A DNA stretch of 64,000 nt from Thermoanaerobaculia bacterium (GTDB lineage: Bacteria; Acidobacteriota; Thermoanaerobaculia; UBA5066). Shown piece after piece: positions 1 through 5,167 of this stretch. The position numbers and the translations under genes were made by a program. The stretch is from contig CAVRAY010000001.1 in the NCBI GenBank assembly GCA_963719225.1, positions 3,456,001 through 3,520,000 on the forward strand, in the 5' to 3' direction. Below the pieces are notes generated by a model. The model was not told the DNA's origin, made no database searches, and was given only the letters and a program-made list of their open reading frames with translations. The number at the start of each line of letters is the position of its first letter. Within the stretch, counting starts at the first letter, position 1.

Positions 1-1
1 G

Positions 2-715
2 GGCGAGACGGGCACACGGATTCATTCCTTCACCTATACGGGGAGGGAGACGGGAGAGGCCGGGCTACATTTCTATAGGGCACGGGTGATGCAGCCGGGC
101 GTCGGACGCCTGACTCAAGAGGATCCGTTGGGTTTGGGCCCGAGCGTTTATGCGTATGCCTTCAACGACCCTGCTCGCCTTCTCGACCCGCTGGGCGCGG
201 CGGGCGAGGCGCTCGACTTCTCGCCAGACAAAGGCCACCACTTCTTCCCCCGAGCTGAGTGGGGGAAAGTGCCCGGCCTTTCACAAGAGGCAAAAGACAT
301 CTTCGACCATACCAAAACAGGCGGCAAGCTTCCCACTGATATTCACTACTGGAACGGCCCGAACGGTGTGCATGGTCAATACAGCACTGCGACCCGCGAG
401 CTCTTCGACGAGTTCGTTAAGTCGCGCGGAATCGACCCTACGAAGATGACCCGCGCGGAAGCCGAGGAGTTTATTCGGACGATAATCAACTCTCGGCGCG
501 GCCCGATTAGGAGGCTGCTCGACCCAATTCGGCGCTGGATGCGGGCGAATCGGCTACGCGGGAAGACCTTCTGCTTCGGCCCGGTCGATTTCGGCCTCGC
601 GATCGCCGAGATGCTCTTGGAGGACCAGGAAGAGAGTCAACTCGACTCTGATTACATTCGCTGGAAGTACTTCCACGGGCCAATGCCGGGCGGCGCAGCT
701 GGAGCGATTTACTGA
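2..715 (+). CDS. RHS repeat-associated core protein, 3' part (open to window edge), with C-terminal putative His-rich (GHH/AHH-like) nuclease toxin domain
   Basis: Frame open from base 2: FTYTGRE..GLHFYRARVMQPGVGRLTQEDPLG..YAYAFNDPARLLDPLG is the RHS core signature. It is followed by a divergent tail with GHHFFP..H..HGQY. Confidence 0.85.
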   Translation, partial: GETGTRIHSFTYTGRETGEAGLHFYRARVMQPGVGRLTQEDPLGLGPSVYAYAFNDPARLLDPLGAAGEALDFSPDKGHHFFPRAEWGKVPGLSQEAKDIFDHTKTGGKLPTDIHYWNGPNGVHGQYSTATRELFDEFVKSRGIDPTKMTRAEAEEFIRTIINSRRGPIRRLLDPIRRWMRANRLRGKTFCFGPVDFGLAIAEMLLEDQEESQLDSDYIRWKYFHGPMPGGAAGAIY

Positions 716-1377
716 TGCTGGACAACGGGTTCGTACTCACCTACGGGCCGGGTTTGCGTGGGCCTCATCGATTTTGTGGCGTTAACGAGACCGCCGATGC
801 CCAGTGTCCGAACTGTAAGAGGCCGCTTCTGCAGCTCTTCGTATTCGACATGAACGACCGACCGTTGGAGTCGCTGGGGCACGCGCTCTCGGCTGACCGG
901 CTCCCACTTCATTGGTGCTGGACGTGCGACATTCTCAGGGGGCCGCTAACCTACGAGTTGCTGGACCGGGGTCGACGCATCAGGCTATTGACCTACAACC
1001 ACGGGCGCTTCCAACCGGATACTCCGTACCCGGACTATCCGATCTACTTCCCAGGCACCGATTCGGGACTCGAGGAGATTCCAGCCGTCGTGAGCGGGCA
1101 GGTTAGGAACCTCAATCGACGGGAAATCCGGCTCAGTACTGTTGATGGCGAAGCGTGGGCTAGACCTAGGCATCAGCTCGGGGGGGAGCCGTTCTTTTCA
1201 GGTGGCCTACCCGGCCGGCGCGTTTGTCAGCAGTGCGGAGCCGAGATGGAGTTGCTCGGGGCCGTTGCAGACAAATGCACGGACGCCCGCGGCTTCGCCT
1301 CGAATGAGTTCGTCCAGTTGCTCTTCTGGGTCTGCCCGCCTTGCCGGATCCTGCGTGGGGAACAGGATCTAGAGTAG
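715..1377 (+). CDS. Putative immunity protein, Cys-rich, YwqG/DUF1963-like
   Basis: TGATG overlap with the toxin stop; CPNC..LLQLFVFD, CWTC, HQLGGEP..CQQC..MELL, CPPC motifs. Confidence 0.65.
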   Translation: MLDNGFVLTYGPGLRGPHRFCGVNETADAQCPNCKRPLLQLFVFDMNDRPLESLGHALSADRLPLHWCWTCDILRGPLTYELLDRGRRIRLLTYNHGRFQPDTPYPDYPIYFPGTDSGLEEIPAVVSGQVRNLNRREIRLSTVDGEAWARPRHQLGGEPFFSGGLPGRRVCQQCGAEMELLGAVADKCTDARGFASNEFVQLLFWVCPPCRILRGEQDLE

Positions 1378-1819
1378 CGGCCCGCTGGGCACGTCGCGTG
1401 CGGAAGCAAGCGTGCGGTGAGCGCACCCTGGCGCACGCGCCGCGCCCGCTACCGACTCGCACGATCGTGAGCTGATCGCGACGGCCGCGCTTCGAAGAGC
1501 ACGACCGGAGAGAGCGCCCGCCCGCGGCTCCGGCGAGAGGGCAGGAGGTGCCGGGCGCGGGGCAGCGCGCGTGCCCGTAGCCTCTTCCCCGGCCCTTCTC
1601 CCGGCACGCGCGCTGCGAAGCCCGCTGGCCGATATTTCGCGCAAATATCGTCCCCGGCGCTTGCGCTTTTTTCCGCGTCGCTCACGCGCCGCGTGGCAGC
1701 CCTCTCGCCTCCGGGCTCGCGGTAGCTCGCCTTCAACGTAACGTCGAACGCTACGTTAAACCGCGGCGGGCGTAGCGAGCGCGCGACGAAGATCGCGCGA
1801 GTTCTCGGAAGTGAAGGCC

Positions 1820-1835
1820 TGGCACGCCGCGTGCT
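1820..1835 (+). promoter_or_regulatory. Candidate sigma54 (-24/-12) promoter
   Basis: TGGCACGCCGCGTGCT has exact GG-N10-GC spacing and the TGGCACG -24 box; it lies in an intergenic region upstream of the 2068-3569 genes. Confidence 0.35.
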
Positions 1836-2067
1836 GGTTTTCCGCCTCGCGCCAGGCGGGGACACGCGCTGGCATCGACGGACGGTCAGTCGGGACCACG
1901 GGGATTCTCTACGGTGGCCCTCGAAGGGACGACCCTTCGCCGGCGGACAGTTCCGGGCGAAGACACGGTCAGGATCGTCCCGGAGTGATCCGCGGCATCC
2001 TGAGGCTCATCGCGTAGGATGCGGAGCGTCCATGCCGCCCGGAGCCTTTCTCAGCGAAGGAGTCGCC

Positions 2068-2487
2068 ATGAAGAAACTGCTAGCTCTTATCGCCGCGACC
2101 TTCATTCTCGTCGGCTTCTCGGCCTCGGCGGACGACAGCGATGCCGTCGCTCAAGCCCAGATTGCCGCAAAGAGCTGGCTGGCGCTCACGGATGGCGCCA
2201 AGTACGGTAAGAGCTGGGACGACGCGGCGTCCGTCTTCAAGGCCGCCGTCACGAAGGCAGACTGGGAGAAAGCCATCAAGGGCGTCCGCGCGCCGCTCGG
2301 CGCGATGAAGGCGCGAAAGGTCAAGTCGGCCACCTTCACGCGCACTCTTCCTGGCGCCCCGGATGGGGAGTACGTCGTCATTCAATTCGACTCGCAGTTC
2401 GAGAACAAGGCCGCCGCGATCGAGACGATCACGCCCATGCGCGACAAGGACGGCGCCTGGAGGGTTTCCGGCTACTACATCAAGTAG
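2068..2487 (+). CDS. DUF4019-family secreted protein
   Basis: AAGGAG RBS, signal peptide MKKLLALIAATFILVGFSASA, motifs WLALTD..Y..SW, LPGAPDGEYVVIQF and DGAWRVSGYYIK. Confidence 0.8.
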   Translation: MKKLLALIAATFILVGFSASADDSDAVAQAQIAAKSWLALTDGAKYGKSWDDAASVFKAAVTKADWEKAIKGVRAPLGAMKARKVKSATFTRTLPGAPDGEYVVIQFDSQFENKAAAIETITPMRDKDGAWRVSGYYIK

Positions 2488-2614
2488 GCGGAGCTAGTCG
2501 ACCTCCCGTGGGGAATGCGGGAGTTCGGCGTCCGCGCGCCGGACGGACATGGATCATGTTCGGTCAGGAGTTAAGGAGAGGTTGATATCGTCGGACGGCC
2601 GGCAGGAGGACAGG

Positions 2615-2863
2615 ATGGCGCGGATCGCGTTTCGCTACTGTGCCTATTGAGTTTCGGGTTTGCATGCCGTCCGTGTGGCGGCACGGATTCGAAAAGAGCT
2701 GAAGACCGAGGTCGAGATGGTTCACGGCCGCTACGGTGAATTCAAGGTTCTCGTGGATGGAGATAGCGTGATCGATGGCGGCGCGCTCGCCGTGTTGGGC
2801 GTTCTGCCATCTGGCCGGAAGATCGTCGATGCTGTCCGGGCGCGCCTGGGAGATCGCTTGTGA
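2615..2863 (+). CDS. Rdx (SelW/SelT/SelH)-family selenoprotein, CxxU motif, UGA at 2648-2650
   Basis: AGGAGG RBS then ATG 2615: MARIAFRYCAY(TGA)VSGLHAVRVAARIRKELKTEVEMVHGRYGEFKVLVDG, a typical Rdx pattern. The stop overlaps the next start (GTGA). Confidence 0.75.
2665..2683 (+). promoter_or_regulatory. Candidate bacterial SECIS hairpin
   Basis: TGCCGTC-CGTGT-GGCGGCA: 7-bp stem (one G-U pair), G at loop position 2, loop about 21 nt 3' of the UGA. Confidence 0.5.
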
Positions 2864-3141
2864 GCGCAAAATTTCTCATCGAAGTTCCGCACGAAGGAAA
2901 CATGGTGGTCTGCGCTCGGGCCGTCGAAGTCTTCCTCACGAGCGGCTCCCATTTCCTCAGCCATGCAGACTGGGGATGCAAGGACGGGGTGCACAAGGCG
3001 TGGATCGTGGTGGAGGTCGACAGCAAGGACGAGGCCCGGGGCATCGTCCCACCGGCGTTCCGCGCCGAGGCGAACATCGTCCAGCTCAACGCGTTCACGT
3101 TGAAGGAAATCGACGAAATCCTTCAGCATCACCAGGCCTAA
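2860..3141 (+). CDS. Conserved small hypothetical protein (possible alpha/beta-barrel fold; HADWGCxDGxH motif)
   Basis: GTGA coupling to the Rdx gene; protein-like composition with clustered Cys/His. Confidence 0.65.
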   Translation: MSAKFLIEVPHEGNMVVCARAVEVFLTSGSHFLSHADWGCKDGVHKAWIVVEVDSKDEARGIVPPAFRAEANIVQLNAFTLKEIDEILQHHQA

Positions 3142-3176
3142 CCATCCGGGCCCTCCGAAGCCGGGCAGGTGATTCC

Positions 3177-3569
3177 ATGCCAGCCAGCCGCAAGCCGCCG
3201 AAAGACATCGACGAATACATCGCGGCCTCCTCTCCCGAGGTAAGGGCGATTCTCACGCGAATATGGTCGACGATCCGCAAGGCGGCACCGGGCGCCCAGG
3301 AGATGATCAGCTATCGGATGCCGGCGTTCACGCAGAAGGGCGTCCTGGTGTACTTCGCCGCCTTCAAGAACCACATCGGCTTCTATCCCCCGGTGAGGGG
3401 CGATGCGAGACTGAAAAAAGCTGTTTCGCGCTATGCGGGAGAAAAAGGCAATCTGCGATTTCCGCTCGACCAACCGATGCCCTATGGCCTGATCCAGAGG
3501 ATCGTGAAGCTTCGCGTGAAGCAGAACCTCGCGAGGGCGGCTTCCAGGGGAAAGGAGGCTAAGGGCTAG
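3177..3569 (+). CDS. DUF1801 (YdhG-like) protein
   Basis: IDEYIA..IRKAAPGAQEMISYRMPAF..YFAAFKNHIGFYP..KGNLRFPLDQPMPYGLI. Confidence 0.85.
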   Translation: MPASRKPPKDIDEYIAASSPEVRAILTRIWSTIRKAAPGAQEMISYRMPAFTQKGVLVYFAAFKNHIGFYPPVRGDARLKKAVSRYAGEKGNLRFPLDQPMPYGLIQRIVKLRVKQNLARAASRGKEAKG

Positions 3570-5167
3570 CTCCAGTCCCGCCGTCTCTCCCAGATCCCGT
3601 CCGCCGCGCGGAGCGCCAGGGCGCCGATCGTGTTCGTGGGATTGACGGCGGCGCTCGTGACGAAGGAGCTGCCGTCGACGACGTAGAGATTCGGCACGTC
3701 GTGCGCGCGGTTCCATGCGTTCACGACGCTGTGCCGCGGGTCGTTTCCCATCCGGGCCGTGCCCATGAGATGCGCGAAGACGTTCGGGCCGGGCACCTGC
3801 AGAGTTTCCACGGCGCCCGCCGCCTCCAGCACCTGCCGCGCGCGCGCGACCCCGTGGTCGAGCATGCGGAGCGTGTTCTGTGAATAGCGGTACGTGACCT
3901 TCGCCGCCGGCATGCCGTGGAGGTCGTGCTCTTTCGAATCGAGCGTGACGCGATTCGCCTCCTCCGGCAGGTCCTCGCTCATGATCGCGATGCCGATCGT
4001 GTGCGCGAAGCGGCGCCGCATCTCGCGGTGATGCGCCGCGCCCCAGGGGACCGGCTTCGCGTCGCCCCACGCCTGGCTCAAGGGACCATACGGCCCATAC
4101 ACGACCAGCGAGTAGCCGCGCGTGAAGCCGCGGCGCGTGTCGGTTTCGTAGAACTCCTGGCTGAAGCACGGATTCGAGGCGATGCCCACGTGGCCGTCGA
4201 GGCGCTCCGGGAAGATCCCCTCGACGTAATGGCTCGGATGGACCATGTAGCGGCGGCCGAGGAGGCCGCTGGAGTTCGCGAGACCCTGCGGAAAGAGCTT
4301 CGAGCGGGAGTTCAGGAGCAGACGCGGCGTGCCGATGCCGTTGCAGCAGACGACGACGACGCGCCCCCGCTGCTCGTGGAGGGCGCCCGAGCGGTCGTGG
4401 TAGAGGACGCCGCGCGCGCGGCCGGCGGCGTCGGTCGTAACCTCGCGGACGCGCGCCCACGTCGTGATCCTCGCCCCCTCGGCCAGCGCTTTCGGCCAGT
4501 ACGTGAGATCCACCGAAGCCTTCGCCCTCCGGGGACAGCCGAAGTTGCAGCGGCCCCGGCCGTCGCAGCCGAGCCGGCCGTCGGCATCGCGCGAGAGGAT
4601 CGCGTTGTCGGAAGGCCACCAGTGCCAGCCGAGCTTCTCGAAACCGCGCACCACGACTTCTCCGCGTTTTCCGAGGCCGAGCGGAGGATGCGGGCGAGGC
4701 GCGCGCGGAGGGTTCGCGGGATCGCCCGCGAGACCCGACACGCCCATCATGCGGTCGTTGAGGTCGTAGTAGCGCTCGAGGTCCGCGTAGCCCAGCGGCC
4801 AGTCGTCCCCGACGCCGTCGAGAGACCGCACGCGGAAATCCGCGGGGTGCAAGCGCGGAAAATGACCTTCCCAGTGGATCGTGCTCCCCCCGACGCCGTT
4901 GAACATCACGATCTGCGAGGGGGTGAGGCCTTCCGTCGTCACCGGGTAGTCCTCCGCGAGGCGGCGGACGTTCGGGCTGAACGTGGAGCGTCCCCGCCGG
5001 AGGAATACCTCGACGTCGCGCTGCGACGAGGGGAGCGCGTCGCGCGCGATCCAGTCGCCCTGCTCGAGACAGACGACGCGAGCGCCGCTCGCGGCGAGAC
5101 GCCAGGAGAGCGCCGCGCCGGCGGCACCCGACCCGACGACGACGACGTCCGCGATCTCGCCCGCCAT
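3566..5167 (-). CDS. GMC-family flavin oxidoreductase (gluconate-dehydrogenase-like flavoprotein subunit)
   Basis: VVVGSGAAG FAD motif, GVGGSTIHW, C-terminal HLMGTARMG..NLYVVDGS..NPTNTI; start MAGEIAD overlaps the upstream stop. Confidence 0.9.
   Translation of the reverse strand: MAGEIADVVVVGSGAAGAALSWRLAASGARVVCLEQGDWIARDALPSSQRDVEVFLRRGRSTFSPNVRRLAEDYPVTTEGLTPSQIVMFNGVGGSTIHWEGHFPRLHPADFRVRSLDGVGDDWPLGYADLERYYDLNDRMMGVSGLAGDPANPPRAPRPHPPLGLGKRGEVVVRGFEKLGWHWWPSDNAILSRDADGRLGCDGRGRCNFGCPRRAKASVDLTYWPKALAEGARITTWARVREVTTDAAGRARGVLYHDRSGALHEQRGRVVVVCCNGIGTPRLLLNSRSKLFPQGLANSSGLLGRRYMVHPSHYVEGIFPERLDGHVGIASNPCFSQEFYETDTRRGFTRGYSLVVYGPYGPLSQAWGDAKPVPWGAAHHREMRRRFAHTIGIAIMSEDLPEEANRVTLDSKEHDLHGMPAAKVTYRYSQNTLRMLDHGVARARQVLEAAGAVETLQVPGPNVFAHLMGTARMGNDPRHSVVNAWNRAHDVPNLYVVDGSSFVTSAAVNPTNTIGALALRAADGIWERRRDWS

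What the first reader, a model, noticed from the sequence alone, without database searches (positions are those of the whole stretch)
2615..2863. Hidden Rdx-family selenoprotein (C-A-Y-U) missed by the ORF track
Seen: strong RBS and ATG at 2615, then YCAY-TGA in the same frame as the called 2660-2863 ORF (..GRYGEFKVLVDG..). A hairpin TGCCGTC-CGTGT-GGCGGCA starts 14 nt after the UGA. Known: Rdx/SelW proteins have an N-terminal strand, CxxU/CxxC and a GxFEV-like strand, and bacterial SECIS elements lie just 3' of the UGA with a G early in the loop. Inference: the UGA is recoded as Sec and the organism uses selenium.
Basis: partly seen in the sequence, partly recalled or inferred. Interest (0 to 1): 0.7.

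Follow-up and report, generated by a model that had tools for sequence, protein, structure and literature searches.

The report
Missed bacterial SelW-like selenoprotein gene
A small gene whose internal stop codon is very likely read as selenocysteine, giving a predicted thioredoxin-like redox protein of the already known Rdx/SelW family; it is an ordinary, well-supported annotation fix, and one relative sits in an integron cassette array.

Summary
Confirmed. Window 2615-2863 encodes an 82-residue Rdx/SelW-like protein with C-A-Y-U; it passes the Pfam Rdx cut-off only when TGA 2648-2650 is read through. The genome has selA, selB, tRNA-Sec and a selD with its own in-frame TGA, plus RF2. All 38 distinct close copies (window included; three phyla) keep the TGA. 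The four wobble positions in the hairpin stem are almost frozen (0-0.39 bits against 1.18-1.94 at 23 other sites), and the loop Arg codon is CGG/CGT in 37 of 38. That fits the published bacterial SECIS model. The hairpin alone would be weak evidence: a crude scan gave 95 such hits in this genome. In a phylum sample, 40 of 40 genomes with an Rdx-like hit have selB, against 297 of 401 overall. The predicted fold matches solved SelW-family proteins (Z 11.3). Bacterial CxxU SelW-like proteins are long known, so this is a new member of a known kind. This branch is distinct, mostly mis-called, without fixed neighbours, and in one relative sits in an integron array. Sec incorporation and substrate are untested.

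The parts
2604..2609 (+). Shine-Dalgarno AGGAGG, 5 nt before the start
   Evidence: an SD core (GGAG/GAGG/AGGA) precedes codon 1 in 32 of 38 close copies
2615..2863 (+). Full gene for the 82-aa Rdx/SelW-like selenoprotein (read-through of the internal TGA)
   Evidence: (PF10262 23.4 bits, cut-off 22.6)
2639..2641 (+). Cys9 codon, first residue of the CxxU motif
   Evidence: Cys in 38 of 38 close copies
2648..2650 (+). In-frame TGA, inferred Sec12
   Evidence: TGA in 38 of 38 close copies; aligns with the second Cys of CxxC in 2fa8
2665..2683 (+). Predicted bacterial SECIS hairpin: 7-bp stem (6-bp conserved core 2666-2671 with 2677-2682), 5-nt loop CGUGU at 2672-2676, conserved G at 2673
2726..2761 (+). 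GRYGEFKVLVDG, the strand motif aligned to GGLFEITVDG of solved Rdx proteins
   Evidence: strand E43-47 in the model
2780..2809 (+). Short hydrophobic helix and loop (residues 56-65, GALAVLGVLP) typical of this branch
   Evidence: helix H56-61 in the model; G56, G62, P65 invariant in alignment A2
2660..2863 (+). The truncated ORF called by standard gene finders (lacks the first strand and the CxxU motif)
   Evidence: no Rdx hit at E<=1 in Pfam

Best explanation
The stretch 2615-2863 is one gene whose in-frame UGA is very likely recoded as selenocysteine, giving an 82-residue Rdx/SelW-family protein predicted to act as a small cytoplasmic thiol-selenol oxidoreductase. Shown: open frame on both sides of the TGA, conserved TGA, conserved downstream hairpin, and selA/selB/selC/selD in the genome. 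Inferred from the known bacterial pathway: SelB with Sec-tRNA(Sec) binds the hairpin's G-containing loop 21 nt past the UGA and delivers Sec ahead of RF2, so yield would depend on selenium supply. Predicted: a beta-alpha-beta-beta-beta-alpha-alpha thioredoxin-like fold with Cys9-x-x-Sec12 at the start of helix 1. Inferred by family analogy and untested: the motif cycles between a selenolate/thiol pair and a selenenylsulfide to reduce oxidised protein or small-molecule thiols, as a dispensable, mobile redox-stress gene; the branch-specific hydrophobic helix would be a likely partner- or dimer-binding surface.
For: Pfam Rdx is met only with read-through: 23.4 bits against a cut-off of 22.6, and no Rdx hit for the truncated ORF; 30 of 31 aligned members hit PF10262 at E<=0.01. 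selA E 1.4e-108; tRNA-Sec 59.9 bits against 47; selB over the cut-off; selD over the cut-off with an in-frame TGA in SAG*ACK; an FdhA-like gene with an in-frame TGA and a hairpin. TGA in 38 of 38 close copies, and codons 2-11 vary synonymously with no indel before the TGA. Third-position entropy at the 4 stem codons is 0-0.39 bits against 1.18-1.94 at 23 other four-fold sites (Mann-Whitney p 0.001); Arg20 is CGG/CGT in 37 of 38 against 89 of 202 for other CGN codons. The RNAalifold consensus is exactly this hairpin; 95.9% of cells pair; the outer pair shows CG/UA/GC/UG and Val-to-Ala changes turn U-G into C-G. selB is in 33 of 35 distinct genomes with the gene, and selA or selB in 34 of 35. 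In the phylum sample 40 of 40 genomes with a hit are selB-positive and 0 of 104 selB-negative genomes have a hit. Model pLDDT 88; best matches 2fa8 (Z 11.3, rmsd 2.5, 79 aligned), MIEN1 (Z 8.6) and mouse SelW (Z 8.1). One Cys form (P0004/P0122) has His in place of the loop Arg, which would remove the SECIS loop G.
Against: No expression, ribosome or proteomic data; Sec incorporation is not observed. Most stem pairs never vary, so covariation rests on one outer pair that is broken in 7 of 31; sliding the 3' arm by -3 still pairs 92.6% of cells because of the GGCGGC repeat, so the exact register is not proven. The Pfam score is barely over the cut-off, and TIGR02174 (13.6 against 34.2) and NF041051 (32.2 against 88) are not met. 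For the close clade alone, the selB co-occurrence in the phylum sample is 7 of 7, p 0.2, since selB is common; kin are not independent in any of these tests. One genome with the gene (G084, 2.5 Mb bin, completeness not shown) gave neither selA nor selB. No conserved neighbour points to a substrate, so the redox role rests on family analogy.
Confidence: 0.93

Rival explanations
1. The TGA is a true stop: an 11-codon leader peptide is followed by a separately initiated 67-68 aa protein, as the gene callers predict.
For: 116 of the 120 listed database homologues are annotated without the N-terminal part; RF2 is present.
Against: Only 12 of 38 close copies have any ATG/GTG/TTG in codons 13-17, whereas 36 of 38 have one at the aligned codon 1 and 32 of 38 have an SD core before it. 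The short ORF lacks strand 1 and the motif and loses the Rdx match. The TGA is never TAA or TAG in 38 copies.
Confidence: 0.02
2. The gene is a pseudogene, or the TGA is a sequencing or assembly error of a Cys codon.
For: The genome is a bin with 6.2% contamination; degraded copies exist in the wider family (e.g. P0127, P0148 with Arg at this column).
Against: The same TGA is in 37 other distinct sequences from three phyla with synonymous variation around it, and in an independent contig.
Confidence: 0.01
3. UGA is read as another residue (Trp or Gly by a changed genetic code, or Cys by a SECIS-dependent tRNA variant).
For: Two database proteins show W at this column (P0002, P0003), probably from gene calling under another code.
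Against: The genome has RF2 over the cut-off; the only intron-free UCA-anticodon tRNA found is tRNA-Sec; SelA and SelD are intact, so the tRNA would be charged to Sec. A SECIS would be needless under a global recoding.
Confidence: 0.02
4. Sec is inserted, but the CxxU pair serves to bind a soft metal or metalloid (or to store selenium) rather than for thiol-disulfide exchange. This rival concerns function only.
For: CxxC/CxxU also occurs in metal-binding proteins (stated in PMC1088965, passage seen); cassette-like mobility would suit a detoxification gene.
Against: The fold is thioredoxin-like with the motif at the canonical redox position; there are no other conserved Cys, His18-type ligands are not invariant (His17 in 34 of 38), and no metal-resistance neighbours recur.
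Confidence: 0.15

Closest known systems
Bacterial SelW-like / Rdx family selenoproteins (PF10262; TIGR02174 SelT/SelW/SelH), listed with CxxU as a high-confidence predicted family in PMC13188914 and PMC9312934
   Same: Size, N-terminal strand followed by CxxU, G-x-F-x-V strand, predicted fold, UGA with a downstream SECIS, and scarcity of Cys forms in Sec-using organisms (stated for SelW-like in PMC1794560).
   Different: A distinct, well-supported branch (99/96 support) that falls under the TIGR02174 and NF041051 cut-offs. It has two more residues between Sec and the SECIS than the NY(E/L)PRAAxLAA type among the distant hits, and a hydrophobic helix (GALAxLGVLP) where those have K-x-x-x-GRFP.
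Solved Cys-type bacterial Rdx proteins: Agrobacterium Atu0228 (2fa8), Bordetella 2ojl, Vibrio 2p0g, Streptomyces 3dex, Pseudomonas 2obk/2oka
   Same: Top fold matches (Foldseek E 3e-5 to 1e-4, TM 0.69-0.80; VIA-align Z 11.3 for 2fa8); C9 and U12 align with their CxxC.
   Different: They use Cys at the second position and share only 18-28% identity.
Mammalian SELENOW (2npb) and MIEN1 (2ljk)
   Same: Same fold (Z 8.1 and 8.6); SELENOW has CxxU (family description in the papers read).
   Different: The eukaryotic SECIS lies in the 3' UTR; 19-23% identity; known partners of the mammalian proteins cannot be assumed.

Membership tests
Rdx / SelW-like family (PF10262) | Score above the Pfam gathering cut-off | tested here: met
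   23.4 bits against 22.6 with U scored as C, a narrow pass; the DNA-level search with the stop left in gave 15.9 bits; 30 of 31 members hit at E<=0.01
Rdx / SelW-like family (PF10262) | CxxC/CxxU directly after the first strand, at the start of helix 1 | tested here: met
   C9-A-Y-U12 lies between E4-8 and H13-29 in the model and aligns with the CxxC of 2fa8 and 2ojl
Rdx / SelW-like family (PF10262) | Second motif G-x-F-E-I/V on a later strand (motif wording recalled, not from a call) | tested here: met
   YGEFKV aligns with TGGLFEI of 2fa8; Lys replaces Glu
Rdx / SelW-like family (PF10262) | Minimal thioredoxin-like fold | tested here: met
   Predicted model, pLDDT 88; the three chains with Z>=8 among 48,161 are all Rdx/SelW-type
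TIGR02174 SelT/SelW/SelH subfamily model | Score above the curated cut-off of 34.2 | tested here: not met
   13.6 bits; NF041051 also not met (32.2 against 88)
Bacterial selenoprotein | In-frame UGA conserved and aligned to Cys in homologues | tested here: met
   TGA in 38 of 38; Cys forms P0004/P0122, P0005, P0125, P0199
Bacterial selenoprotein | bSECIS model: 3-9 nt loop, 4-16 bp stem, G in the first two loop positions, 16-37 nt from the UGA, MFE <= -7.5 kcal/mol (PMC13188914, Fig. 2 legend) | tested here: met
   5-nt loop, 7-bp stem, G second followed by U, 21 nt, -9.8 kcal/mol; measured by hand and script, the bSECISearch program was not available
Bacterial selenoprotein | selA, selB, selC, selD in the same genome | tested here: met
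Bacterial selenoprotein | Selenocysteine shown in the protein | not testable with these tools
   needs mass spectrometry or 75Se labelling
Rdx / SelW-like family (PF10262) | Oxidoreductase activity through the motif | not testable with these tools
   needs an assay
Integron gene cassette (the window's copy) | attC sites flanking the gene | tested here: not met
   no attC-like pattern or repeat beside the window gene, while the same scan found two such sites near this genome's intI about 2.3 Mb away

The most novel reading that the evidence does not exclude
This is an unrecognised, almost Sec-only branch of the Rdx family that carries its own SECIS and moves between Acidobacteriota, Gemmatimonadota and Eisenbacteria as a stand-alone unit, at least sometimes as an integron cassette. 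It would be a selenoprotein spread by integrons and functional only in Sec-competent hosts, with a hydrophobic helix that gives it a partner or membrane role unlike other Rdx proteins.
Probability: 0.3. Interest if true: 0.45.

Novelty: new member of a known kind. Interest (0 to 1): 0.22.

Why it matters
It corrects a systematic mis-annotation: 116 of the 120 listed homologues lack the active-site end in the protein databases. It also supplies a clean natural data set for a SECIS inside a coding region, with frozen wobble positions and a loop codon restricted to CGG/CGT. It adds to evidence that Sec use is common in this phylum sample (selB in 297 of 401 genomes). It does not open a new mechanism: the recoding route and the family are known, and the physiological substrate of bacterial SelW-like proteins stays open.

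Tried and rejected
Hairpin stability as evidence: weak (z -0.35 to -2.39; 95 genome-wide hits in a crude scan). The long 18-pair stem predicted for the window copy is not conserved as a whole (75% of cells paired, several lower pairs broken in 20-23 of 31), although its shuffle control was exceeded; the consensus fold keeps only the upper hairpin. A degenerate pattern for Cys-codon versions in JGI metagenome contigs gave one match, which on reading is not a homologue, so SECIS decay in Cys forms could not be tested at DNA level. No relative was found in viral contigs. Neighbour clustering over 38 loci found no recurring neighbour: apart from shadow frames of the gene itself, clusters had at most 2 loci. 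No sigma-70-like promoter and no + strand terminator were found at 1380-3700. Sequencing runs: no RNA holder listed and only small shares; nothing can be said on expression or habitat. The tree mixes phyla (8 changes, no fewer than shuffled labels) but is poorly resolved, and starred branches force only one change, so horizontal transfer is not shown. Earlier findings of this scan: three look-ups, nothing returned. A paper search for integron + gene cassette + selenoprotein listed 6 papers, none on this topic by title or start of abstract (listing only).

Full report
Observation. The sequence shows AGGAGG (2604-2609), ATG (2615), the codons for Y-C-A-Y, TGA (2648-2650) and 70 further sense codons to a TGA stop at 2861-2863, whose first letters overlap the GTG start of the next gene. 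Standard ORF calling starts at TTG 2660. The hairpin is at 2665-2683 as described. It is the centre of the best fold in three of four windows (in the fourth the same arms pair with a 4-nt loop), but folding z-scores were only -0.35 to -2.39. A crude scan for Cys-x-x-TGA plus a G-loop hairpin gave 95 hits in this 68% GC genome. The hairpin alone therefore proves nothing.

Family. With the TGA read through, the 82-aa product scores 23.4 bits on Pfam Rdx (cut-off 22.6); the truncated ORF has no Rdx hit. NCBIfam's SelT/W/H models match below their cut-offs (TIGR02174 13.6 against 34.2; NF041051 32.2 against 88). It is the only PF10262 match at E<=1 in the genome. A profile of 31 members ranks bacterial Rdx structures first, weakly (2fa8, E 0.008). 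The AlphaFold2 model (pLDDT 88, pTM 0.78; strands 4-8, 33-37, 43-47, 50-54; helices 13-29, 56-61, 67-79) matches SelW-related structures by Foldseek (top ten rows, E 3e-5 to 1e-4). By VIA-align only three of 48,161 chains reach Z 8: 2fa8 (11.3, rmsd 2.5, 79 aligned), MIEN1 (8.6) and mouse SelW (8.1). In the fold prediction and the profile and family searches U was scored as C.

Machinery. The genome holds selA (E 1.4e-108), tRNA-Sec with a UCA anticodon (59.9 bits against 47), selB (over the cut-off, with a second match at the C-terminal end of the model in the same frame) and selD (335 bits, one in-frame TGA in SAG*ACK). An FdhA-like molybdopterin enzyme also has an in-frame TGA followed by a hairpin. 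RF2 is present, so UGA is otherwise a stop.

Homologues. The protein search returned 725 hits; of the 120 listed, 116 cover only 70-84% of the query and 4 cover 95%, two with W and two with C at the Sec column. At DNA level I took 30 loci from the genome collection, 4 close loci from relatives and 6 from a phylum sample. I removed 3 duplicates and set aside 2 distant loci (L050, L051); with the window this leaves 38 distinct close copies. All 38 have TGA at codon 12 and Cys at codon 9, with no indel between start and TGA and free synonymous variation in codons 2-11. A start codon at the aligned first position is present in 36 of 38 and an SD core in 32 of 38, while only 12 of 38 have a possible restart codon in codons 13-17. 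The named records are Acidobacteriota, Gemmatimonadota and Eisenbacteria; a same-genus genome (G022) is the same assembly as a record titled Thermoanaerobaculia, which places the window's organism there by inference. The gene is patchy: 4 of 28 same-genus genomes and 7 close copies in 401 phylum genomes.

SECIS test. At four-fold degenerate codons, third-position entropy is 0, 0.39, 0 and 0.18 bits at the four stem codons against 1.18-1.94 at 23 others (p 0.001). The loop Arg codon is CGG or CGT in 37 of 38, against 89 of 202 for other CGN codons in the same genes, matching the G[G|U] loop rule. These p-values overstate, because kin are not independent. On 31 of the sequences, RNAalifold gives only this hairpin. 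95.9% of cells pair; the outer pair varies CG/UA/GC/UG but is broken in 7; three Val-to-Ala changes convert U-G to C-G; one sequence (L030) breaks two pairs. Against: three of seven pairs never vary, and a -3 slide still pairs 92.6%, so the register is not settled by covariation. The element meets all four criteria of the published bSECIS model (PMC13188914, passages and Fig. 2 legend seen): loop 5 nt, stem 7 bp, G second in the loop, 21 nt spacing, -9.8 kcal/mol. One Cys cluster (P0004/P0122) has His for the loop Arg, the only such change besides one Leu among 120 proteins; this fits SECIS loss but is seen only at protein level.

Co-occurrence. Among 36 genome handles with the gene or a distant relative (35 distinct; G022 and G071 are one assembly), selB was found in 33, selA in 33, and either in 34. 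In the 401-genome phylum sample, 297 have selB. All 40 genomes with an Rdx-like hit (each with TGA inside the match) are among them, and none of the 104 others has a hit (I matched the two lists by hand; Fisher p 4e-6, but 0.2 for the 7 close copies alone). A Cys-type query would have found Cys forms too, but weak hits near the threshold may be missed. These tallies include G037, which the tool flags as unpublished; it counts as one selB-positive genome without a hit, and no other claim rests on it.

Context. The gene lies in a lower-GC stretch (60-65% in six of the seven 500-nt bins of 1-3500, about 70% beyond) with an Rhs-like ORF, a DUF4019 gene, a 93-aa unknown and a DUF1801 gene. No neighbour recurs across the 38 loci. 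No attC flanks the window copy. In L020 (Gemmatimonadales) the gene fills the space between two 137-141 nt attC-like repeats in an array that runs on to an integron integrase about 7 kb upstream. L028 has one such site downstream and L019 a partial one; 35 of 38 show none with this model, which is specific to one repeat type. The 40 close proteins form one branch (99/96); phyla are mixed inside it, but the tree is too poorly resolved to show transfer.

Mechanism. Shown: the gene anatomy, conservation and machinery. Inferred from the established SelB/SECIS pathway (described in PMC1794560, passages seen): UGA is decoded as Sec. Predicted: the fold, with CxxU at the thioredoxin redox position and no signal peptide, since the chain begins with strand 1. 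Inferred by analogy and untested: thiol-selenol redox catalysis in the cytoplasm. The substrate and reductant are unknown.

Known status. SelW-like CxxU proteins (PF10262) are tabulated as a high-confidence predicted prokaryotic selenoprotein family (PMC13188914 and PMC9312934, passages seen) and were the most abundant family in the Sargasso Sea set, function unclear (PMC1088965, passages seen). Six paper searches showed no paper on this branch or on a cassette-borne selenoprotein by title or start of abstract; the library lacks most subscription papers and I did not open supplements, where selenoprotein catalogues could list these sequences.

Noticed in passing
L020:2836-3385 (G066:C1, intI at 1076380-1077318): A Gemmatimonadales copy of this selenoprotein gene is flanked on both sides by attC-like repeats in an array of at least 11 such repeats within the locus, continuing to an integron integrase; L028 has one such site downstream. 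It looks like a selenoprotein carried as an integron cassette.
   Followed up: partly
window 1-1377: End of an Rhs-like gene (RHS-associated core hit below the cut-off) with an unassigned C-terminal domain, followed by a Cys-rich 220-aa ORF with no family hit; likely a polymorphic toxin and immunity pair.
   Followed up: partly
window 2860-3141: A 93-aa ORF overlapping the Rdx stop (GTGA) with no family hit above cut-off; near-identical copies occur in four metagenome runs, and the three contigs with a listed flank there continue into other sequence, not the Rdx gene.
   Followed up: partly
G000:C1:736134 (- strand) and G000:C1:3641398-3642363 (- strand): Two further likely selenoproteins in this genome: an FdhA-like enzyme (ARV*HGP) and SelD (SAG*ACK), each with a hairpin after the TGA.
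   Followed up: partly
phylum sample: selB is present in 297 of 401 genomes of this phylum and in all 43 listed genomes of the window's class, so Sec use looks widespread here.
   Followed up: no
G369:C10, C15, C16: One genome has three matches of identical length and score to a distant Rdx-TGA gene on three contigs: a repeated mobile unit or an assembly duplication.
   Followed up: no
G000:C2:222382-222743 and C2:609793-610153: Two tmRNA genes with slightly different tag peptides on contig C2; could reflect the bin's 6% contamination or a real duplication.
   Followed up: no
G000:C1:1106071-1115984: The window's genome has its own integron integrase with two attC-like sites about 8-9 kb away, far from the window.
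   Followed up: partly
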